26,124 bases of DNA from a virus (lineage: Duplodnaviria; Heunggongvirae; Uroviricota; Caudoviricetes), in IMG/VR virus record IMGVR_UViG_2698536443_000009, positions 1 to 26,124 of that record. One strand, given 5' to 3'. Shown piece after piece: positions 13,552 through 26,124 of the stretch. How positions within the stretch are numbered: the first letter of the stretch is position 1; each line of letters begins with the position of its first letter. The notes beneath the pieces were generated by a model that ran no database searches, was not told the DNA's origin, and was given only the letters and a program-made list of their open reading frames with translations. Position numbers and translations under genes: made by a program.

Positions 13552-13962
13552 CAATGCCTCACCTAATGGGTGGAATGGCATCGTAAAACCTACTGTACAA
13601 ATCAACAATCGTACCGTTTCGGTATGTAACAAACGCCAACCGTAGCCATGCTGCGGCGATTCCTTGTATCTGGAGCAAATTAAATGACAGATATTATAAA
13701 TAGGAATTTTTATTTAATAATATTTGAAAATTAAAATCATGGACGATAGGAATAAAAGTAGTACTTGTCATTTTTAAGTGACGCATTAAACGCATAAAGC
13801 ATATGTCTGTTGATCAAGATTCTTACTTGTTGTAAAATAATTGTCCTGTTCATGTTGCATGGTTTTAAAATGAATAGAAGATTATTTTTCAAAACAATTG
13901 CATCTTTGTCTGCAGTCATTCCGTTTTCTTCAATATCTAAATTTTCAAACAGGATGACTAAT
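13552..13962. promoter_or_regulatory. AT-rich control region between mnt and the tailspike gene (expected Pmnt, possible operator remnants and tailspike promoter)
   Basis: About 410 bp of AT-rich non-coding sequence with several inverted repeats (CACC-N6-GGTG near the mnt start; AAATGACA ... TGTCATTT separated by about 75 bp). P22 has arc and ant here; they are absent. Confidence 0.35.
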
Positions 13963-16194
13963 ATGCCTGATATAACTCCAAATGTTGTAATTGGGATGCC
14001 TTCGCAACTCTTCACTATGGCTCGCTCTTTTAAAGCGGTAGCCAATGGCAAAATTTATATAGGAAAAATTGACACTGACCCGGTAAATCCTGAAAACCAA
14101 ATTCAGGTTTATGTAGAGAACGAAGACGGTTCTCACGTTCCTGTTTCGCAACCAATCATCATTAACGCTGCTGGTTATCCGGTATATAACGGACAGATTG
14201 CCAAATTCGTAACCGTGCAAGGCCATTCAATGGCTGTTTATGATGCATACGGTGCGCAGCAGTTCTATTTTCCTAATGTGCTGAAGTATGACCCTGATCA
14301 GTTTAGAACAATAATAGAGTCAAATTATGGTGCGGGGCATGTTGGTACTTCGTCTGGACTAACAATTCAGCAGTTGATTGATTCTTTTATTGTAGTTACA
14401 CCACAAATGTTTGGTGAATCTGGAAAGTCAAATGATTCAACAATAGCAATTAACTCTGCATTGGACTATCTTGAGTCTCTAGGTGGTGGGATTATTTATC
14501 TTCCTCCAGGTAAATATTACGTCAGCATTGAAAAATCAGGTCATAATTATTCATGCATTAGAGTTCCCGCTAACGTAACTTTCTGTGGGGCTGGTGCTGG
14601 ATCTACCATCATTCAGAGACTACCCACTGAGAGGGGGATGGATGGTGTCTTGATAACAAATAAATATTATGATACTAGAACTGGCTATGGAGCTGCCGGC
14701 AATATTGTTTTTAGAGATTTTACAATCACTGACGGTAGCGCAACCCCAACAAGGGATTATGGTGATTTAATCGGTTTAGGTCATAGCAAAAATGTAACTA
14801 TAGAGAGAGTGGAGCAAGGGAGACATGATCAACATTTTGTTGATATTGCAGGATCAACCGATGTAACAGTCAAAGACTGTCACGGGTCGTGTGATATGGA
14901 GGTGGACCATATTACGTGGAATTGTGATATACAGATTGATTCCGCTCAACCAAACGCAATACTTGGAATTAAAGTTGATGGCACACCTAGCACAAATATA
15001 ATTATTAGCGGAAATAAACTTCAAAACAAAAGCTCAAATTTGCAAATTGAAATAGGACATGCTGGGGGAGTATATAGAAATATTATTATTTCTGATAACA
15101 TACTTGATGGGGCATATTTTCAAGACTCATCAGTTATTGGTTGTAACTCAACAACAGCTACCATTATCAATTTGAGCATAAATAACAATCAAATACTAAC
15201 AAATAATATAAATTCAAGAGGTGTTAATCTTTATTGTCTTGGGAATAACGAAAAACTTATTGGTATTTCTTTTAGTAATAATATTATAAGAGGTTATGCT
15301 AGGATTGGTGCATGGTTTGGGACTAATGGTAATTATACTGGAACGAAGTTTCCTCATGATGATGTAACAATAATAGGAAATAAATTCTTTCTAACATCGC
15401 CTTCATCTGGAACATTTGTTCAAGGTGTTGTTGTTGCTGGTTGGCGATCTGTTGTATGTAGTGATAATATAGTTGAGATATATTCTGATAATGAATTTTC
15501 TTCAGGGTGTTCGGTGATATCAGTTTGGAAAAATGGTAGTGCTAAGGTAAGTGATAACAATATCTCTAGAACATGTGGTGCAACACCTGACGTATCATCT
15601 TCAGTTATTTCGTTGATACTAATCACCCCTGAACCTTCCAGCATTGATAAGGCGTCATCAATCCATATTAATGGAAATGCTTTCTTTGGAGATATTCCTA
15701 GATATGCAATAAATCACAAAGAAGGGTGGATTGAAGGATATGACATGATAGTTGTATCAGGCTCTCATGGTAGATTTAACCAAACATTTATAGGCACGCA
15801 AGGGGCGCATATGTATGAAACGTACCCAATTTCTGATATGACAAATTTCAATCAACCAGTGTCAATAAATGGTCAATATAGAAGGCAGGTATACAGAGGA
15901 AATATTTACAAGTCAACGTTCAATTTGAAGAAAAATGGAAGTGAAACAAGTGGGGCTAAGGTGGATTTTTTTATATCTAATGAACGCTCAAAAATAACAG
16001 GTTCTGAACAATTGAATGTAGCATATATATCTCCAACTGAGTCTGTGGGAATCACCGCTACATCAATAGATTTGTCATCAGGAACACTTAATATAATTAC
16101 TGGAACAAATGGTGTATCTATGAATTTAAATCCATCCAATAAGCAGCCTGAAATAAGAAATAGCGCGTATATAAGCGCAAGGATTTCCATTTAA
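13963..16194 (+). CDS. Tailspike protein: P22 gp9-like head-binding N-terminal domain plus divergent receptor-binding domain
   Basis: [97 protein letters not shown]...[10 protein letters not shown] matches the P22 tailspike N-terminal domain closely. AGGA RBS 8 nt upstream of the ATG at 13963. The rest is AT-rich and unrelated to P22 gp9. The track ORF starts further upstream at 13810. Confidence 0.9.
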
Positions 16195-16985
16195 AATTCA
16201 GAAATTAGCCATAAAAAGCATGAAGTCTATCATCCAAGTGTCAATCGATCGATGACTTGCGGTGGTTGATGAGACAAAACTGAGACACACAAAGCTTTGC
16301 ACTGGATTGCAAGGCTTTGTGCTCTTCGATAGTGGTTAAGGTGGATCACTCCACCTTTTCATCAAGCCAGTCTGCCCACCACTGCATCATTTCTCTGCGC
16401 TTAATGTAGCGGATGCCTCACTATCACATAGTGATGGTTCATTACTGCTTTGTAGAATTGATAGAGAACTGAGGATAAAAAGATATCCCAAAACCCCAAA
16501 ATCTCATCTTTAGGATTTGCAGAAAGGGAGGCGTGAACAGATACCTGCGCATGAAGACGGAACTAGTCCAGATGTGATATTTGTGGTGATCACATACATC
16601 ATTAACGATGCTCGTTATGGTGAGTTTGATGACTACCCGCTGAAGTGAAAATTGTGTTGTGTACCAAATTGCGTACCAAACTAAAATCACAAATCATGAA
16701 ACCCTTGTTCATGGCGGTTCTCAGGGGTGTTGCGCGTAATCGTGAAACAAAAAGGTAGATTGTTGCTTACCGTCATTCATCATTAGGTTAAATCCGTTAT
16801 TTCTGCTGTCTGCCAGAGTATCAAATATCACCGTGCTAATCAGCTTTAGCGCCACAATTTGGCAGCGAGTGGCAACAGATCATGTCAGATAAAAATGAGA
16901 GGGTAGTCACATTTTCTTGCACTTTATTCCAGCCAGTTCATAAGTATTTCCGTAAAAAGAACAGCTATTTGAAACTCCTGAGGGT

Positions 16986-18158
16986 TTGCTGTTGAAACGC
17001 CGTCTTATTATTGCTGCTTCTTTGTTCGTTTTTAACTTATCGTCTGGTTTTGCGGCGGAAAACATTCCTTTTTCACCTCAGCCTCCAGAGATTCATGCCG
17101 GGTCCTGGGTATTGATGGATTACACCACCGGTCAGATCCTCACCGCGGGTAATGAGCATCAACAGCGCAATCCCGCCAGCCTGACAAAGCTGATGACGGG
17201 TTATGTCGTGGATCGCGCTATCGATAGTCATCGCATTACGCCAGACGATATTGTCACCGTGGGGCGCGATGCGTGGGCGAAAGATAATCCGGTGTTTGTC
17301 GGTTCTTCACTGATGTTTTTGAAAGAGGGCGATCGCGTATCGGTACGTGATTTAAGCCGTGGTTTAATTGTGGATTCCGGAAATGACGCTTGTGTTGCTC
17401 TGGCTGACTATATTGCCGGTGGGCAACGGCAGTTTGTTGAAATGATGAACAACTATGCCGAGAAGCTGCATCTCAAGGATACGCATTTTGAAACAGTGCA
17501 TGGTCTGGATGCACCTGGCCAGCATAGCTCGGCTTATGATTTAGCTGTGCTTTCTCGTGCTATCATCCACGGCGAGCCCGAGTTTTATCATATGTACAGT
17601 GAGAAAAGTCTCACCTGGAACGGTATCACCCAGCAAAACCGTAACGGGTTGTTGTGGGATAAAACCATGAATGTTGACGGCCTGAAAACGGGTCATACTT
17701 CTGGTGCCGGGTTTAATCTCATTGCTTCGGCTGTAGATGGGCAGCGTCGTCTCATTGCAGTGGTAATGGGGGCTGACAGTGCAAAAGGTCGTGAGGAAGA
17801 GGCAAGAAAATTACTGCGTTGGGGGCAACAAAACTTTACTACGGTGCAAATTTTGCACCGTGGGAAAAAGGTCGGAACGGAACGCATCTGGTATGGCGAT
17901 AAAGAAAATATCGACCTGGGAACGGAACAAGAGTTCTGGATGGTGCTACCGAAAGCCGAAATTCCACATATCAAAGCCAAATATACCCTTGATGGTAAAG
18001 AACTCACCGCGCCAATTAGCGCCCATCAGCGGGTAGGGGAAATTGAACTTTACGACCGTGATAAACAGGTGGCGCACTGGCCGCTGGTTACCCTGGAATC
18101 TGTCGGGGAAGGCAGCATGTTTTCTCGCCTGAGTGATTATTTCCACCATAAGGCCTGA
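16986..18158 (+). CDS. dacD: D-alanyl-D-alanine carboxypeptidase DacD (PBP6b)
   Basis: Signal peptide, SLTKLMT (SxxK active-site motif), SGND and KTGHT motifs typical of class A low-molecular-weight PBPs. Length and sequence fit E. coli DacD. Start is TTG at 16986 or the TTG at 16992 (giving 388 aa). Confidence 0.93.
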   Translation: MLLKRRLIIAASLFVFNLSSGFAAENIPFSPQPPEIHAGSWVLMDYTTGQILTAGNEHQQRNPASLTKLMTGYVVDRAIDSHRITPDDIVTVGRDAWAKDNPVFVGSSLMFLKEGDRVSVRDLSRGLIVDSGNDACVALADYIAGGQRQFVEMMNNYAEKLHLKDTHFETVHGLDAPGQHSSAYDLAVLSRAIIHGEPEFYHMYSEKSLTWNGITQQNRNGLLWDKTMNVDGLKTGHTSGAGFNLIASAVDGQRRLIAVVMGADSAKGREEEARKLLRWGQQNFTTVQILHRGKKVGTERIWYGDKENIDLGTEQEFWMVLPKAEIPHIKAKYTLDGKELTAPISAHQRVGEIELYDRDKQVAHWPLVTLESVGEGSMFSRLSDYFHHKA

Positions 18159-20507: not shown

Positions 20508-20521
20508 TTCCCGTTTTATTC

Positions 20522-20548
20522 AATGAGGGTTGCCCGGCAACCCTCATT
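20522..20548 (+). terminator. Strong 12-bp hairpin after yeeX (AATGAGGGTTGC ccg GCAACCCTCATT)
   Basis: Perfect 12-bp inverted repeat with a 3-nt loop, 15 nt after the yeeX stop, followed by a moderately U-rich tract (GCTCATTGATTCTTATCTG). Confidence 0.45.
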
Positions 20549-20607
20549 GCTCATTGATTCTTATCTGTGTATCACCGTCATCATTCTCATCCGAGAACCA
20601 ATCGAAA

Positions 20608-21248: not shown

Positions 21249-21404
21249 TCAGGAGAAATGAAGCCTGTTGAGTGAGATTCACCGGTTCTGGTGCAGAAGC
21301 TGCAGATGGCGCAGGGTAAGGACATCTTCTCTTGCCTGCTTAATACAGGACAACAGTGCTGTTTCTGTGGTTAATGGCACTATACCCTGTATCACTGCAT
21401 TGTC

Positions 21405-21599
21405 TTACAGCAACTGGTGAGGGCTGGCATAAGTTGCCGGTGTTTCGGTAGAGTCACGGTCATCCACCACGCGGAGTGAATAACCGTTTTCAGCGGCCTT
21501 ATTAATCAGTTCAGTGATATTAACACCATCAATGTCAACGACAATGTGCCCCATATCCAGCGCCTGTACGTTAACGCTGTCGGCTTCCAGTGTCATCAT
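21405..21599 (-). CDS. yeeW: YeeW-family small protein (64 aa), CP4-44-like element
   Basis: 64 aa ORF overlapping the stop of the cbtA-like gene; matches the size and position of E. coli yeeW, the last gene of the CP4-44 toxin-antitoxin block. Confidence 0.8.
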   Translation of the reverse strand: MMTLEADSVNVQALDMGHIVVDIDGVNITELINKAAENGYSLRVVDDRDSTETPATYASPHQLL

Positions 21600-21970
21600 T
21601 TCGCCTCCGGATACTTACCCAGGGTAATGTTATTTACCGTTCTGTAATTGTCGCGGGTCATCAGGCCGGTCGCCCTGCGAGCCCGGAGGATATCGATGCT
21701 GTTTATTAACTGAGAGCGGGTACAGGCGCTGAATCCCGGCTGGTCGGTACGCACCAGCGCGTATTTTTCCACGAGAAAGTTCACCGCATCACACAGTGAA
21801 ATGCCTGCCTCAATATGCTGCTCAATCACACGTTCATCGGCAAAAGGTGTGTCATTCAGTGTGAGGCCATAGTGCTGGTCCAGCAGTCGGGACAGCAGTA
21901 TCTGCCAGATTTCAACAGGAGACGGGCGAGAACTGGCCGCCTGCCCGGGTAATACAGGTAATGTTTTCAT
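21596..21970 (-). CDS. cbtA: CbtA (YeeV) family toxin, inhibitor of FtsZ/MreB polymerisation
   Basis: 124 aa, the same length as E. coli YeeV, directly downstream of the cognate antitoxin gene in the conserved yeeT-yeeU-yeeV-yeeW order. Confidence 0.88.
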   Translation of the reverse strand: MKTLPVLPGQAASSRPSPVEIWQILLSRLLDQHYGLTLNDTPFADERVIEQHIEAGISLCDAVNFLVEKYALVRTDQPGFSACTRSQLINSIDILRARRATGLMTRDNYRTVNNITLGKYPEAK

Positions 21971-22058
21971 ACTGAAGATTTTCCTGATATGCAGATATAA
22001 AAATGGAAAAGTGGCGTGGTGAAAACACCAGGCCGTAGCAGAAGGCTATTCTGGAGAG

Positions 22059-22427
22059 TTAATTTTTCATTTCGGGCGTCGGATAAACAGCCAGATAAAC
22101 GTAACCACAACTGCTGAGGGTATCGGCTTTGCAGGTCAGCCCTTTTGCATACAGCGTGACGGTATGCTGATGGCGGGGATTCAGTTCACCGCTGGTGAGC
22201 ATGAGTTCCAGTTGTTTCATCAGCAGCGGAAAGGCCTGGTCCAGGTGGTACGCATCTGCATCGCTGAACAGGCCTCTGATACCGGCGCGGTCGGCAAGGT
22301 AATGCAACCGGTTACCCTCCTGCACCAGACGTGCCCCGAAACAGGGCGTCACGGTGCAGGGCAGCCCCCACCAGGGGCGGTCGTGATTGTCGTCGGGAAG
22401 TGTTGTCCCGGGGAGTGTGTCTGACAC
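22059..22427 (-). CDS. cbeA: CbeA (YeeU) family antitoxin
   Basis: 122 aa beginning MSDTLPGTTLPDDNHDRPWWGLP..., consistent with the YeeU/YfjZ/YafW antitoxin family; adjacent to the toxin gene. Confidence 0.88.
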   Translation of the reverse strand: MSDTLPGTTLPDDNHDRPWWGLPCTVTPCFGARLVQEGNRLHYLADRAGIRGLFSDADAYHLDQAFPLLMKQLELMLTSGELNPRHQHTVTLYAKGLTCKADTLSSCGYVYLAVYPTPEMKN

Positions 22428-22500
22428 GATAAAATCCTTACAGAAAATCGGCTAAGAATGGTCCGGTAGTGGCGATAATTCTGCTCATCAGAATTCCCAC

Positions 22501-22722
22501 TCAGTTCAGGGTGACGCTCATCAGCCGGACATACGGACCAAAACTGTCCTTACGGCGTTCAGCAAACACGGCCAGCACACCGGGAATATCCTGCACTTCA
22601 CGACCGGTATACGCTTCAGCACTGCCGTGCCAGCGGTATTTACCGGTACAGAACGGAAAAAGACGGGATGTCGGATGTTGTTGGTGAATACGCATGGCTT
22701 CACCACGGGTGATAATTTTCAT
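22501..22722 (-). CDS. yeeT: YeeT family protein (DUF987), 73 aa
   Basis: 73 aa ORF immediately upstream of the antitoxin gene, the conserved position of yeeT/ykfF-type genes. Confidence 0.8.
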   Translation of the reverse strand: MKIITRGEAMRIHQQHPTSRLFPFCTGKYRWHGSAEAYTGREVQDIPGVLAVFAERRKDSFGPYVRLMSVTLN

Positions 22723-22784
22723 AATGGGATACCTCTGAAGACAGAAGATAAAAGTGAAAACAGGTGTGATGTGGTTGTGAAGGG

Positions 22785-23276
22785 TTAAAGCAGACCATGT
22801 TCGGCAAAGGAGAAAACCTGGTTGCCACCGACTATCAGATGGTCCGGCACCCGGATATCCACCAGGCCCAGTGCCTGTACCAGACGTTCGGTGATAAGCC
22901 GGTCTGCCTTACTGGGTGTGACTTCACCGGACGGGTGATTGTGTGCCAGTACCACGGCAGCGGCATTGTGGTACAGGGCGCGTTTAATCACTTCCCGGGG
23001 ATGGACTTCCGTGCGGTTGATGGTGCCGGTGAAGAGGGTTTCACCGGCAATCAGCTGATTCTGGTTGTTCAGATACAGCACCCGGAATTCTTCACGCTCC
23101 AGTCCCGCCATGTTCAGAATCAGCCATTCCCGTGCTGCACGGGTGGAGGTGAAGGCCACGCCGGGTTCATGAAGATGGCGGTCCAGGGTTTTCAGGGCCC
23201 GTTGAATGAGGCTGCGCTCGCCGGGCGTCATCTCTCCGGGCAGAAAGGAAAGTTGTTGCATTGTGCTTCTCTCCAT
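22785..23276 (-). CDS. yeeS: RadC-like JAB-domain protein (YeeS/YkfG/YfjY family)
   Basis: Contains the JAMM-type motif HNHPSG plus conserved Glu/Asp context (VLAHNHPSGEVTPSKADRLITERL), typical of RadC-like proteins of CP4 elements. Confidence 0.88.
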   Translation of the reverse strand: MERSTMQQLSFLPGEMTPGERSLIQRALKTLDRHLHEPGVAFTSTRAAREWLILNMAGLEREEFRVLYLNNQNQLIAGETLFTGTINRTEVHPREVIKRALYHNAAAVVLAHNHPSGEVTPSKADRLITERLVQALGLVDIRVPDHLIVGGNQVFSFAEHGLL

Positions 23277-23756
23277 TCAGTCGATGATGCGCATAATGGC
23301 GCTGCATTCCGGATGCTGCAGGGCGTAATCCCGCAACCGGTAATAATGGACCGTCATGGCATAATTCTCCGTACGACAGGCATGATGACTGTACGTCATC
23401 AGACAGGCGGCAATACCGGCGGCTTCCGGGCTCATTTCTGCGCGGTTACCGTTCATGGCATTGAACAGTACCCATGTTTCGTCATCATCGTCATCCGGTT
23501 CGGGTGCCATAAATGCCCCGCCGTTGTTCAGGGTGTACAGATTCCAGATACCACCGCAGTAGTCTTCGCACAGACGGTCCATCCAGCCGAAGACACGGGG
23601 CTCCAGGGTCACCCACTGTGGAATGAGGCCAAAATGCTGCGGCCAGAAGCTGATGCGCTGTTCATCAGGGACGAGGCTGGCAACCAACTGAGGCGGATTA
23701 TTCTCTGGTGTTGTAGCTGAATAAATTGTGGGGGTATTCTGAGAAACGGTTTTCAT
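23277..23756 (-). CDS. Antirestriction protein, KlcA/ArdB-like (YfjX/YafX family)
   Basis: 159 aa with an acidic patch (PEPDDDDDETW) and conserved tryptophans, in the position occupied by antirestriction genes in CP4-6/CP4-57-type elements, directly upstream of the RadC-like gene. Confidence 0.75.
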   Translation of the reverse strand: MKTVSQNTPTIYSATTPENNPPQLVASLVPDEQRISFWPQHFGLIPQWVTLEPRVFGWMDRLCEDYCGGIWNLYTLNNGGAFMAPEPDDDDDETWVLFNAMNGNRAEMSPEAAGIAACLMTYSHHACRTENYAMTVHYYRLRDYALQHPECSAIMRIID

Positions 23757-23837
23757 GAGATAACTCCTTAAATAACAAATAAATGTGTGTTTTTCAGGAA
23801 CGAAAGCTGAATGATTCCCTCACTCAGGGAAACGGCA

Positions 23838-24659
23838 TCAGCGCAGGCTCTCCAGCATCGTTTCTGCCATCACCCACAATGCGCGATTGAGCTTAATGTC
23901 GGTATCAATGCTGTGAATGGCCCGGGTATGGATACGTTTTCCTTTTGCACTGCGACCGGAAATCCCGCCTTTCAGCATATTCTCCTGGATGGTCTGATAT
24001 GCGCTCCACAGGTCCTTACCGTAATCCTCCCGGCGTCGCGGCGTCAGAATGTCGGCGGTGGTGACGGGCTGATGTTCGTCACCATAACGGTAAGTCAGTG
24101 CCGCCTGTGCCAGCGCCTGGCGTGCCGGTGGCGGCAGGACCAGCGACTGCATGGCATCACGCTTCTCCTCTATCCGGTCAAACACGCCCACCACCTCGTA
24201 AGCCCCTTCGATAACTTTCTCCACTACATTTCCCCGGTGTGGAACACGCACTTCCCCCAGAGACTGGCCACAGACGCACCCGTTCTGGCAGACGAACCTG
24301 AAGTAACCCGGCAGCATCTGGTAGCTGGAGGTACCGTCATGAGAGTTGAGCAGAATAATTTCAGGGACATGTTCTCCGTTTATCTCTCCGGCCCGCCGCA
24401 GACGCAGCATGTGTTTTGTGTATCCCCGGCGGCCCGGGTCGCGCACACGGGTCTGGCAGGCGAAGAACGGCTGAAAGCCTTCCCGCTGCAGATTTTCCAG
24501 GACGGTAATGGTGGGAATGTACGCATACCGTTCACTGCGGGAGGTGTGCCGGTCTTCCCCAAAAATACTGGGTACATGGCGTATCAGTTCTTCATGTGTC
24601 AGCGGACGGTCACGGCGTATCTGGTTTGCAGCATAACCAAAACGACTTGCTAATCGCAT
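23838..24659 (-). CDS. DUF932-family protein (YafZ/YfjQ-like), conserved core gene of CP4-type integrative elements
   Basis: 273 aa ORF heading the conserved DUF932-antirestriction-RadC-TA gene block. Assignment is from memory of the family and from synteny. Confidence 0.7.
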   Translation of the reverse strand: MRLASRFGYAANQIRRDRPLTHEELIRHVPSIFGEDRHTSRSERYAYIPTITVLENLQREGFQPFFACQTRVRDPGRRGYTKHMLRLRRAGEINGEHVPEIILLNSHDGTSSYQMLPGYFRFVCQNGCVCGQSLGEVRVPHRGNVVEKVIEGAYEVVGVFDRIEEKRDAMQSLVLPPPARQALAQAALTYRYGDEHQPVTTADILTPRRREDYGKDLWSAYQTIQENMLKGGISGRSAKGKRIHTRAIHSIDTDIKLNRALWVMAETMLESLR

Positions 24660-24704
24660 ACTTTGCTCCTTATCGGTGGTTAAGATTTACTGGTGCAATA
24701 AATG

Positions 24705-24736
24705 AAAAAAGCCGCGTCTCCCGGAGAAGACGCGGC
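24705..24736 (-). terminator. Intrinsic terminator downstream of the two-gene cargo operon (minus strand)
   Basis: Minus-strand hairpin GCCGCGUCU ucuccggg AGACGCGGC (9-bp stem) followed by UUUUUU (plus-strand A6 at 24705-24710). Confidence 0.6.
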
Positions 24737-24879
24737 CTGACGGGTGAAATGAATAAGGTTTATTGTCTGAGAGGCCTTTCACTGGCGAGCCACGCATTAA
24801 GCGGCTTTCCGGTAACAATGGCTGGGGCTGTATTTACCTTTGATATTAATAATGTGCAGAGAAACGCATGGTTTACTCC

Positions 24880-25290
24880 TTAGATTTTAAGTTTGTCCTG
24901 GGCTACAACGACAGGTTTTCCGGATGTGTCGATGACTCCTACCGTCGGTACGCCATTTTTGATTTCGAAGAACGGTTTGTTGCTACCTGAGCACAGTTGA
25001 TTGTCCCCGTATTCAATCATTTGTGCTTTCCCGGTTTTCAGGTTAACTACCGAGACAGTGTAGTCGTAGCACCAGGCACCACCACGTTCAAGCACGAAAA
25101 CATAGCTGTTATCTTTATAGTTGAACTGATTCTTTGTCTGGCAATTCATACCGTCAATTTCGGTACAGGAAAACGCTTCTGTAGTATTAACGTATTTGAT
25201 GTTATTTGGCAGTTTTACTTGTTTCGCAGTAGCGAAGACAGAGAACAGAATAGTTACAGCAACGAGTAAAGTTTTGATAAAAGTTTTCAT
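24880..25290 (-). CDS. Secreted Cys-containing protein of unknown function (136 aa, N-terminal signal peptide)
   Basis: MKTFIKTLLVAVTILFSVFATA is a signal peptide; the mature part has four Cys and no recognised family. AT-rich relative to neighbours. It lies 15 nt downstream of the Ivy-like gene. Confidence 0.6.
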   Translation of the reverse strand: MKTFIKTLLVAVTILFSVFATAKQVKLPNNIKYVNTTEAFSCTEIDGMNCQTKNQFNYKDNSYVFVLERGGAWCYDYTVSVVNLKTGKAQMIEYGDNQLCSGSNKPFFEIKNGVPTVGVIDTSGKPVVVAQDKLKI

Positions 25291-25305
25291 GATAGACTCC
25301 TTAAA

Positions 25306-25794
25306 TTAGTTAACCGCAGCTACGTAGTTTTTCACCAGATACGCGAATTCATGCACGCCAATTTCACCGAACCAAACCAGGTAGGCCGGGTCATCTAAAC
25401 CAAAGTAACGGTAGCCAACAACTTCATGGGTTTTTGGGTTATAGAGTGTTACGATAAAGTCCCAGCCGCAGGTATTGGCTTTGCAACCGTCGCCCTGGAA
25501 CCAGACTGTACCGTTAATGTTTACTGGCGTGATACCTCCACCAGGGCCATCCATATAGCCGCCTTTACCGAACATGCCGCTCAGTCCGACCGGTTTTAAT
25601 GCTTTGTCGATAGCGGCTTTGTAGGTAGCGTCACCTTCGTACAACTCGTACGTTGATGGACACGCTCCAGGTTGTTCAGCCCAGGCTTCCGGGTTACAAC
25701 TAAGAGCTTGTTTTACGGTAGCCGCTTCTGCGTTAAAGTTAAAGCCCGTGAACAGAACCGCCAGAAATAACATAAGGGTATGTAAACGTTTCAT
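25306..25794 (-). CDS. Periplasmic Ivy-like protein (candidate lysozyme-inhibitor-fold protein), 162 aa from the internal ATG
   Basis: Signal peptide MKRLHTLMLFLAVLFTGFNFNAEA. The mature region aligns by eye with E. coli Ivy: KAAIDK / KAAFNQ, FGKGGYMDGP / MKGGTYTP, and GDGCKANTCGWDFIVTLY against SACKPHDCGSQRIAVMW, but the loop histidine is missing. The track ORF (25306..26097) extends upstream from a GTG and may include 5-prime UTR. Confidence 0.5.
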   Translation of the reverse strand: MKRLHTLMLFLAVLFTGFNFNAEAATVKQALSCNPEAWAEQPGACPSTYELYEGDATYKAAIDKALKPVGLSGMFGKGGYMDGPGGGITPVNINGTVWFQGDGCKANTCGWDFIVTLYNPKTHEVVGYRYFGLDDPAYLVWFGEIGVHEFAYLVKNYVAAVN

Positions 25795-26124
25795 TGTAAA
25801 TATTCTTCCGTTGTAAATGGCGCTGGAAAATTTCTCATCAGTGAAACCTTCCGGAAGTTTCCCCCCCTTGTATGATGTATATCGCCAGTATTTTATTTCA
25901 TCCCGGCTGTAATTTTTATATTCCCCGGCACGTGCAATAACGCTGACCAGAGATATAAGGCTCATTAATAACTTTACAGGTAATTTCATAATTAAATTTC
26001 CAGTGAGTGAATTGACAGGTGAGGGGTAAAACTTTCTCTCAGGTAATATATATCTGAAAATATTTTCAATAACACCAGACAGGAAAAACACCACCACAGG
26101 CGGTGGCGTTTCTTTGGGGCGTCT

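What the first reader, a model, noticed from the sequence alone, without database searches (positions are those of the whole stretch)
16195..16985. Non-coding prophage/host junction with arm-type-like inverted repeat and short direct repeats
There is no ORF of 60 aa or more, but several structured elements: an 8-bp stem hairpin (16288..16321), AAGGTGGA-tcac-TCCACCTT (16338..16357), a perfect palindrome TCACTAT-cac-ATAGTGA (16418..16434) that contains the CACTAT core of lambda-type Int arm sites, and a tandem GTACCAAA-N4-GTACCAAA (16661..16680). These are candidates for integrase/IHF binding sites of attR or a gene-9 terminator. P22 carries gtr O-antigen conversion genes here; their absence is notable.
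Basis: partly seen in the sequence, partly recalled or inferred. Interest (0 to 1): 0.45.

Follow-up and report, generated by a model that had tools for sequence, protein, structure and literature searches.

The report
Prophage right end in sbcB
This stretch is the right-hand junction (attR) of a P22-like prophage inserted into the start of the E. coli exonuclease I gene sbcB, a known integration site; it holds two likely integrase arm-binding sites, decayed gene fragments and about 240 bases of ordinary host DNA.

Summary
All four motifs are at the stated coordinates, but the region is not simply non-coding and its last ~240 bp are host DNA. The phage/host boundary is the published 13-bp core CGTAATCGTGAAA of the phage 2851/Sf101 attachment site (16735-16747), inside codons 13-17 of sbcB. 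About 8% of complete E. coli genomes (460 of 5426) carry the same junction.

Only the tandem GTACCAAA pair (16661-16680) is well supported as a protein-binding site. The same motif occurs three more times just upstream of the cognate integrase gene. This 2+3 arrangement, with fixed spacing, holds in integrase relatives down to about 49% identity, and the motif sequence changes together in both arms. The integrase has an arm-DNA-binding domain.

The TCACTAT palindrome lies inside a truncated humD/umuD'-like pseudogene, is broken in relatives, and matches no site of this integrase family. The AAGGTGGA inverted repeat lies inside a leftover 3' end of an IntS-type integrase gene. The 16288-16321 hairpin is the one that follows intS in K-12 CPS-53. 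These fragments are the scar of an integration-module swap that removed the gtr genes.

Verdict: a known kind of site, with a useful but incremental refinement (the arm-site architecture). Low interest.

The parts
16211..16287 (-). Leftover of the intS-gtrA (yfdG) intergenic region of a CPS-53/KplE1-type module. It is cut about 20 nt before the point where gtrA would start.
   Evidence: Collinear with K-12 intS-yfdG and with MB10, where gtrA follows (alignment A3).
16288..16321 (.). Hairpin with a 14-bp stem. In relatives it sits between convergent tailspike and intS genes, immediately 3' of the intS stop. It is terminator-like but has no clear T-run.
   Evidence: Fold -22.5 kcal/mol, z -4.2. 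Present in K-12 CPS-53, MSHS472, MB10, mEp234, 1717 and Sf101. Not called by the terminator scan.
16346..16405 (-). 3' remnant of an IntS-type (argW/CPS-53) integrase gene, encoding ...KRREMMQWWADWLDEKVE*, with the stop at 16346-16348.
   Evidence: tblastn against MSHS472 IntS residues 368-392, E=5e-12. Same C-terminus and same stop position as K-12 intS. Homology breaks at about 16403-16405.
16338..16357 (+). Perfect 8-bp inverted repeat AAGGTGGA-tcac-TCCACCTT followed by TTCATC, lying inside the intS remnant. Possibly a secondary terminator for rightward transcription. The stem is perfect in the window, MB10 and VE-T2 and keeps a G-U pair in Sf101.
   Evidence: Fold -13.2 kcal/mol, z -3.9. 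Two stem mismatches in K-12, mEp234 and 1717; not palindromic in MSHS472.
16397..16648 (+). humD/umuD'-like pseudogene. It covers residues 46-129 only, in one frame, with an in-frame TAG at 16511-16513 and the natural stop at 16646-16648.
   Evidence: tblastn against HK140_028, 56% identity, E=7e-28. PHROG UmuD-like, E=8e-18. PGAP calls the homologous stretch in MB10 'HumD family... internal stop; missing N-terminus'.
16418..16434 (.). Palindrome TCACTAT-cac-ATAGTGA inside the humD pseudogene (codes SLSHSD). Probably fortuitous.
   Evidence: z -2.0. Broken in 1717, MB10 and VE-T2. Palindromes of this size occur about 0.9 times per kb in the window.
16442..16690 (-). 82-aa ORF antisense to the humD pseudogene. 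It equals the hypothetical protein Sf101_0017 and is probably not a gene.
   Evidence: No Pfam or PHROG match. Many amino-acid changes and a frame shift among relatives; interrupted in HK140, where humD is intact.
16658..16681 (+). Two arm-type integrase-binding sites of the P arm: tgtGTACCAAAt and tgcGTACCAAAc, spaced 12 bp, 74 and 62 bp left of the core.
   Evidence: The only two GTACCAAA copies in the window. Top repeat family in the attP of mEp234, Sf101 and HK140, with three more copies upstream of int. The pair is present in all 11 attP-state loci and in 1 of 32 attL-state loci, and that one is spaced 13 bp with unrelated flanks. No variable position inside either 8-mer among 8 distinct arms.
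16735..16747 (.). 13-bp identity segment (core/crossover) CGTAATCGTGAAA of the 2851/Sf101-type att site. This is the phage/host boundary.
   Evidence: Annotated as attP in mEp234 and as the insertion duplication in phage 1717. Published for Sf101 and 2851 (PMC4159516).
16722..16784 (-). Orphaned sbcB start. The native ATG is at 16784 and codons 1-16 run into phage DNA, giving the 20-codon ORF MMNDGKQQSTFLFHDYAQHP*.
   Evidence: Six-frame translation and comparison with K-12 sbcB.
16785..16991 (.). Host sbcB-dacD divergent intergenic region. dacD starts at 16992.
   Evidence: Identical arrangement in K-12. The host part is found in 5422 of 5426 E. coli genomes. DacD domains.

Best explanation
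The region is the attR junction left when a P22-like phage integrated into the 5' end of the host gene sbcB. Integration used a tyrosine integrase of the phage 2851/Sf101 type, which binds both core and arm DNA.

Shown:
- Strand exchange took place in the 13-bp identity CGTAATCGTGAAA (16735-16747), at sbcB codons 13-17.
- Everything to the right is host DNA: the orphaned sbcB promoter and first codons, then the dacD promoter region.
- Everything to the left is phage DNA.
- The stretch between the tailspike stop and the arm sites has no intact gene. It is a chain of fossils: the upstream region of a lost gtr operon, the hairpin and last 18 codons of an IntS-type integrase gene, and the last two-thirds of a humD (umuD'-like) gene with an in-frame stop.
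- In lysogen VE-T2 sbcB is rebuilt at attL with a phage-supplied N-terminus.

Inferred:
- The working part on the phage side is the P arm. The two sites (T)G(Y)GTACCAAA, 12 bp apart and 62-74 bp from the core, are bound by the integrase's N-terminal arm-binding domain.
- During excision these sites are bridged to the core and to the three copies of the same motif beside int at attL, with help from the small HTH gene that overlaps the int 3' end (mEp234_026, annotated as excisionase-like with HTH_17 and as AlpA family in related records).
- The fossils are the scar of an exchange of an argW/IntS+gtr integration module for the sbcB/2851-type module.
- The two hairpins may still terminate late-operon or orphan-promoter transcripts.
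For: Junction:
- The core is at 16735-16747. The left flank is collinear with the attP of mEp234, HK140 and Sf101. The right flank is collinear with K-12 sbcB/dacD.
- Published core and sbcB integration: PMC4159516.
- 460 of 5426 complete E. coli genomes carry at least 80% of the region; 5422 carry the host part.
- Lysogen VE-T2 has the core at both prophage ends, the 2851-type int at attL, and an sbcB annotated as intact.

Arm sites:
- GTACCAAA occurs only twice in the window, in tandem.
- Five same-orientation copies (2 left, 3 right) form the top repeat family in three attPs.
- 32 of 35 integrase relatives (40-99% identity) have exactly three GTAC-centred motifs in the 62 nt before the int ATG, spaced 11 then 22-24 bp. 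GTAC is 18-fold enriched there, binomial p=1.7e-87.
- A 12-bp-spaced pair lies 280-302 nt upstream of int in all 11 attP-state loci, but in only 1 of 32 attL-state loci, and that one is spaced 13 bp with unrelated flanks.
- The 8-mer variant changes together in both arms: GTACCAAA in the 2851 type, GTACA(T/G/A)AA in SEN34, phi346 and L077. In the right-arm triple of Photobacterium all three copies are GCGTCCAAA.
- The integrase has Pfam Arm-DNA-bind_3, E=8e-18.
- None of the 33 variable positions (of 170) among 8 distinct left arms falls in either 8-mer or in the core.

Fossils:
- humD: tblastn E=7e-28, PHROG E=8e-18, and a PGAP pseudogene call.
- intS remnant: E=5e-12, with collinearity to K-12 intS-yfdG.
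Against: - No binding or recombination experiment exists for this integrase in the literature I could search, so Int binding to the GTAC motif is inferred.
- The recombination directionality factor co-varies with Int, so concerted motif change does not strictly separate the two proteins.
- The window does not contain attL or int, so whether this particular prophage still has a working integrase is unknown. The closest complete relative, VE-T2, is a deleted prophage of about 21 kb.
- No IHF consensus lies in the arm.
- Neither hairpin meets the simple terminator rule.
Confidence: 0.85

Rival explanations
1. The GTACCAAA repeats are operators for another protein rather than arm sites for the integrase. 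Candidates are the small HTH, excisionase-like protein encoded next to int, or a repressor of the int promoter.
For: - Directly repeated 8-12-bp sites with 11-12-bp spacing are also typical of excisionase sites.
- The right-hand triple sits immediately upstream of the int ATG, where a promoter operator would lie.
- In KplE1 both IntS and the RDF TorI bind there and repress intS (PMC2951348).
Against: - The motif is on both arms in the 2+3 arrangement classical for arm-type sites.
- The integrase carries a dedicated arm-binding domain that needs a target.
- Other repeats between the core and the triple (TGTCTGTCAT / TGTCTGTTAT) are available as RDF sites.
Confidence: 0.1
2. The region encodes a real small protein (the 82-aa minus-strand ORF, equal to Sf101_0017) or a regulatory RNA, and the palindromes are part of its expression signals.
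For: - The ORF is open in the window, mEp234, Sf101, 1717, MB10 and VE-T2 and is annotated in Sf101.
- The orphaned sbcB promoter points into it.
Against: - No Pfam or PHROG family and no Rfam match.
- It is the antisense frame of a pseudogene.
- Relatives differ by many amino-acid changes and by a frame shift that rewrites the C-terminus. It is interrupted where humD is intact.
- It starts at a GTG that overlaps the arm sites.
Confidence: 0.04
3. One reading: the inverted repeats, especially TCACTAT-cac-ATAGTGA, are lambda-type Int or IHF binding sites of attR.
For: TCACTAT matches 7 bases of the lambda arm consensus C/AAGTCACTAT (from my own knowledge). The palindrome is perfect in the window, mEp234 and Sf101.
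Against: - It lies in a pseudogene.
- It is broken in 1717, MB10 and VE-T2.
- It is absent from the int-proximal arm and from HK140, whose shared arm only begins at 16578.
- The integrase family is different.
- It is statistically weak.
- No IHF consensus lies in the region.
Confidence: 0.02

Closest known systems
attP/attR of Stx2c phage 2851, Stx phage 1717, Shigella phage Sf101 and coliphages mEp234, HK544 and HK140 ('attP type 2851', integration in sbcB)
   Same: - Identical 13-bp core.
- The left arm is 93-97% identical from 16272 (from 16578 for HK140).
- The host target is the same (sbcB 5' end, next to dacD).
- Same integrase type at the other prophage end in the closest lysogen, VE-T2, whose int region is near-identical to mEp234's; Sf101 Int is published as 99% identical to 2851 and mEp234 Int.

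   Different: - Here the module sits in a P22-like prophage directly after the tailspike, with no cargo gene. Sf101 has oacB, MB10 has gtrABC, and HK140 has dinI plus an intact humD.
- The published and annotated descriptions I found give only the 13-bp core. The arm sites are not described in them.
KplE1 (CPS-53) / HK620 / Sf6 IntS-TorI module at argW (Panis et al. 2010, PMC2951348)
   Same: - The integrase has an Arm-DNA-bind_3 N-domain.
- int is transcribed away from the core, with P' arm-type sites lying between the core and the int ATG, so the int promoter overlaps attL.
- The window even carries a fossil of the intS 3' end and of the intS-gtrA spacer.

   Different: - Different core and target (argW tRNA versus sbcB) and a different arm motif.
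- Here the RDF-like gene lies next to int, not at the far prophage end.
- Autoregulation has not been tested for the 2851 type.
Phage lambda attP (P1, P2 / P'1-P'3 arm-type sites)
   Same: Two arm-type sites on one arm and three on the other, separated from the core, for an integrase that binds both arm and core DNA (established knowledge).
   Different: - The motif is GTACCAAA, not C/AAGTCACTAT.
- All five copies are in the same orientation.
- No IHF consensus lies in this arm.
- The integrase N-domain family differs.

Membership tests
attR of the 2851/Sf101-type (sbcB) site-specific recombination module | 13-bp core CGTAATCGTGAAA at the phage/host boundary | tested here: met
   A single copy in the window at 16735-16747. 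Same core in mEp234, 1717, Sf101, HK140, MB10, VE-T2 and K-12 sbcB. Published core.
attR of the 2851/Sf101-type (sbcB) site-specific recombination module | Right flank is the host sbcB 5' end plus dacD; left flank is the phage attP left arm | tested here: met
   Base-by-base comparison of attR, attP and attB. K-12 annotation. Phage hits.
attR of the 2851/Sf101-type (sbcB) site-specific recombination module | Cognate 2851-type integrase and a second core copy at the other prophage end | not testable with these tools
   The window does not reach attL. In the closest complete genome, VE-T2, both are present.
Arm-type binding sites of an integrase that binds both arm and core DNA | A repeated motif, distinct from the core, present on both arms of attP | tested here: met
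   2 + 3 copies in the same orientation.
Arm-type binding sites of an integrase that binds both arm and core DNA | The integrase has an N-terminal arm-DNA-binding domain | tested here: met
   Pfam PF13356 Arm-DNA-bind_3, E=8e-18, residues 4-85.
Arm-type binding sites of an integrase that binds both arm and core DNA | Number and spacing of sites conserved across diverged relatives, with motif sequence changing together in all copies | tested here: met
   - 32 of 35 relatives have the triple.
- 11 of 11 attP-state loci have the pair, against 1 of 32 attL-state loci.
- The C/A switch at motif position 5 is concerted in both arms.
Arm-type binding sites of an integrase that binds both arm and core DNA | Direct binding by the integrase and a requirement for recombination | not testable with these tools
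   Needs EMSA or footprinting and mutagenesis.
Lambda-type Int arm site (C/AAGTCACTAT) | Conserved copies on both arms of the attP of a lambda-family integrase | tested here: not met
   TCACTAT occurs only in the humD pseudogene. It is broken in 1717, MB10 and VE-T2, absent near int, and the integrase is of another N-domain family.
IHF binding site | Match to WATCARNNNNTTR | tested here: not met
   No match with up to 1 mismatch between 16195 and 16985.
Rho-independent terminator | G+C-rich stem-loop followed by a T-run | tested here: inconclusive
   Both hairpins are stable, but the scan finds no terminator. The 16338-16357 stem is followed by only TTCATC after its own TT.
humD / umuD' gene (Peptidase_S24 fold) | An intact ORF covering the whole domain | tested here: not met
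   Only residues 46-129 align, with an in-frame TAG. PGAP calls the MB10 homologue a pseudogene.

The most novel reading that the evidence does not exclude
The GTAC-centred 2+3 arm-site code is an undescribed signature of a whole integrase clade, including the sbcB- and argW-integrating Stx phages. Because the three P' copies lie in the 181-bp spacer between divergent int and the phage-rebuilt sbcB at attL, integrase occupancy would co-regulate its own gene and host exonuclease I. Meanwhile the native sbcB promoter, stranded in this window, would fire across the P-arm sites and modulate excision.
Probability: 0.12. Interest if true: 0.45.

Novelty: already known. Interest (0 to 1): 0.2.

Why it matters
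sbcB is one of the standard insertion sites of Shiga-toxin and serotype-converting phages. Knowing where the boundary and the likely arm sites are helps in three ways:
- Prophages at this site can be delimited correctly, and the fossil fragments need not be annotated as genes.
- Excision and occupancy assays can be designed around the true junction.
- Anyone who wants to use this integrase gets a concrete set of sites to test.

Beyond that, the locus is an ordinary example of phage mosaicism. The scar of an IntS/gtr module that travels with the 2851-type module explains why the gtr genes are missing here.

Tried and rejected
- tRNA scan of the window: none found, so this is not a tRNA-type att site.
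- Rfam at gathering threshold on the whole window and at E<=1 on 16100-17100: nothing.
- Simple promoter/terminator scan: no terminator, and promoter-like hits no more than chance.
- IHF consensus: none in the region.
- Pfam and PHROG on the 82-aa antisense ORF: nothing.
- Phi24B integrase as an experimental proxy: I read PMC7581858 and looked for Phi24B among phages that share the argW-type relative's int gene. It was not among the 40 of 114 records listed. I therefore did not use its minimal-attP data.
- Literature search for the motif GTACCAAA together with 'integrase': only unrelated primer hits.
- Reading the TCACTAT palindrome as an Int site: rejected (see rival explanations).
- GTACCAAA with 1 mismatch across the window: 17 hits against 19 expected, so only the exact tandem is meaningful.

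Full report
**What is there**

The window is a P22-like prophage. It has a portal, major head protein, DNA-transfer proteins and a tailspike with the P22 head-binding domain. Host genes follow: dacD, sbmC, yeeA, and a CbtA/CbeA island. The tailspike ORF ends at 16194 and dacD starts at 16992. The finding covers the gap between them.

The statement that no ORF reaches 60 aa is wrong: an 82-aa ORF lies at 16442-16690 on the minus strand.

**Where the phage ends**

A search of 5426 complete E. coli genomes shows two classes:
- 5422 genomes match the right-hand part only.
- 460 genomes match at least 80% of the region.

Phage records match the left-hand part. The hits include Stx phages 2851 and 1717, Shigella phage Sf101 and coliphages mEp234, HK544 and HK140. 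Their annotations read 'prophage attachment site (type 2851)' and 'duplication due to insertion'.

I compared attR (window), attP (mEp234, HK140, Sf101) and attB (K-12) base by base. The only shared segment is CGTAATCGTGAAA, at window 16735-16747.
- To its right the window is K-12 sequence. The sbcB start codon is on the minus strand at 16784, and the sbcB-dacD spacer follows.
- sbcB is a routine Stx-prophage site.

At attR the native sbcB start is left with 16 codons that run into phage DNA and stop after 20 (MMNDGKQQSTFLFHDYAQHP*). In the closest complete lysogen, E. coli VE-T2, the core is present at both prophage ends. A 2851-type integrase lies 181 bp from sbcB. sbcB is annotated as intact because the phage arm supplies a new start, MTDTDKQPTFLFHDY, and 456 of the 460 following residues match K-12.

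**The direct repeat is the informative element**

GTACCAAA occurs exactly twice in 26 kb, both copies here and 12 bp apart.

In the attP of mEp234, Sf101 and HK140 the top direct-repeat family is this same motif. There are two copies left of the core and three just upstream of the int start codon, all in one orientation.

I then collected relatives of the integrase (40-99% identity) from species-representative genomes, IMG/VR contigs and GenBank phages.

| Test | Result |
|---|---|
| Three GTAC-centred motifs in the 62 nt before the int ATG, spaced 11 then 22-24 bp | 32 of 35 loci |
| GTAC frequency in those 62 nt versus the rest of the loci | 0.046 versus 0.0025 per nt, binomial p=1.7e-87 |
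| 12-bp-spaced pair 280-302 nt upstream of int, intact attP loci | all 11 |
| Same pair where host DNA lies upstream (attL state) | 1 of 32, and that one is spaced 13 bp with unrelated flanks |

The 11 intact attP loci include SEN34 at 60%, phi346 at 56% and ENT39118 at 49% integrase identity. So the pair belongs to the arm that ends up at attR, as in this window.

The motif variant changes together in both arms:
- GTACCAAA in the 2851 type.
- GTACA(T/G/A)AA in SEN34, phi346 and L077.
- In the right-arm triple of a Photobacterium relative, all three copies are GCGTCCAAA.

Two further observations fit:
- The integrase carries Pfam Arm-DNA-bind_3 (E=8e-18) ahead of its catalytic domain.
- Among eight distinct 2851-type left arms, 33 of 170 positions vary, but none lies inside either 8-mer or the core.

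Taken together this is strong comparative evidence that 16658-16681 holds the two P-arm arm-type integrase sites. Binding itself is inferred, not shown.

**The inverted repeats are relics**

*humD pseudogene.* Window 16397-16648 reads on the plus strand, in a single frame, as residues 46-129 of a humD/umuD'-like protein. It is 56% identical to HK140_028 (E=7e-28) and has one in-frame TAG at 16511-16513. It matches the PHROG 'UmuD-like' family (E=8e-18). PGAP labels the same stretch in E. coli MB10 a HumD pseudogene.

*TCACTAT palindrome.* It lies inside this pseudogene and codes SLSHSD. It is statistically weak, and palindromes of this size occur about 0.9 times per kb in the window. It is broken in phage 1717, MB10 and VE-T2. 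It is therefore not an arm site.

*intS remnant.* Window about 16346-16405, on the minus strand, is the last 18 codons and stop of an IntS-type integrase (KRREMMQWWADWLDEKVE*; E=5e-12). The C-terminus and stop position are the same as in K-12 CPS-53 intS.

*Leftover intS-gtrA spacer.* The whole of 16211-16345 is collinear with the K-12 intS-yfdG (gtrA) spacer. That includes the 16288-16321 hairpin, which lies just 3' of the intS stop in MSHS472 and 24 nt beyond it in K-12 and the window. Homology stops about 20 nt before the gtrA start. In MB10 gtrABC is still there.

*AAGGTGGA...TCCACCTT repeat.* It lies inside the intS remnant.
- The stem is perfect in the window, MB10 and VE-T2.
- It is G-U compatible in Sf101.
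- It has two mismatches in K-12, mEp234 and 1717.
- It is absent in MSHS472.

Followed by T-rich sequence, it could act as a terminator. The scan does not call it one.

**How I read the history (inferred)**

An ancestral phage carried tailspike, then gtr, then intS, then the argW attP. That arrangement was overwritten by a module made of humD, the 2851-type attP and the 2851-type int. The overwrite left the intS tail and spacer as a scar.

The scar from 16272 onward travels with every 2851-type module, even in lambda-like phages. The window itself is mosaic around the shared hairpin. Cargo at this position varies among relatives:
- gtrABC
- oacB
- dinI plus humD
- a UmuC-like polymerase
- nothing

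**Comparison with known systems**

The site is a member of the published 2851/Sf101 sbcB attachment-site family. All features testable here are met.

Its organisation resembles two known systems:
- It works like the KplE1 IntS module, where int points away from the core and P' sites overlap the int promoter (PMC2951348).
- It echoes the lambda 2+3 arm-site layout.

It differs in motif, in site orientation and in lacking an IHF consensus in this arm.

I found no description of the arm sites in the literature I could search. That part is a modest new detail about a known system.

**Verdict**

The specific assignments are mostly wrong except for the GTACCAAA tandem. The site is already known and common, so interest is low.

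Noticed in passing
L048 (E. coli VE-T2) 26900-27180; mEp234 L001 3475-3690: The int-proximal arm of the phage encodes a replacement SbcB N-terminus (MTDTDKQPTFLFHDY) and a new upstream region. The lysogen therefore keeps an sbcB ORF annotated as intact, divergent from int across a 181-bp spacer that holds the three arm sites.
   Followed up: partly
window 16195-16405, compared with L007, L129 and L006: The scar of an argW/IntS+gtr module (intS 3' end, hairpin, gtrA upstream region) travels with all 2851-type att modules. The window is mosaic around the shared hairpin: like MSHS472/VE-T2 to the left of about 16322, and like MB10/Sf101 to the right. This suggests module exchange by recombination within the scar.
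   Followed up: partly
L005 (HK140) 1591-2571; L046 (ENT39118) 1-1199: SOS/mutagenesis cargo recurs directly next to the P arm in this integrase family. HK140 has dinI plus an intact humD. ENT39118 has a UmuC-like polymerase (Pfam IMS family) that ends about 20 nt before the arm-site pair.
   Followed up: partly
L032 (Klebsiella sp. BIGb0407), about 20-100 nt upstream of int: A tandem array of about ten copies of the 7-bp unit CTGTTCA occupies the place of two of the three P' arm sites. Only the int-proximal GTACCAAA copy remains.
   Followed up: no
window 20521-20549: A perfect 13-bp-stem palindrome in host DNA downstream of yeeA. It is the strongest inverted repeat in the window and is probably a terminator.
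   Followed up: no
window 16695-16713: Inverted repeat CATGAA-N7-TTCATG between the arm-site pair and the core, partly kept in Sf101 (CATGA...TCATG). It could be a site for the excisionase or a host factor.
   Followed up: no
window 13810-16194: The listed 794-aa tailspike ORF begins at an upstream TTG. PGAP annotates the equivalent gene in VE-T2 and MSHS472 as 2232 nt, which would start at about 13963 here. The N-terminal head-binding domain is P22-like, while the rest is shared only with a few E. coli prophages, some integrated at argW.
   Followed up: partly
window 21400-26100: A CP4-44-like island (CbtA toxin, CbeA antitoxin, DUF932 protein) lies beyond dacD-sbmC-yeeA, as in K-12.
   Followed up: partly
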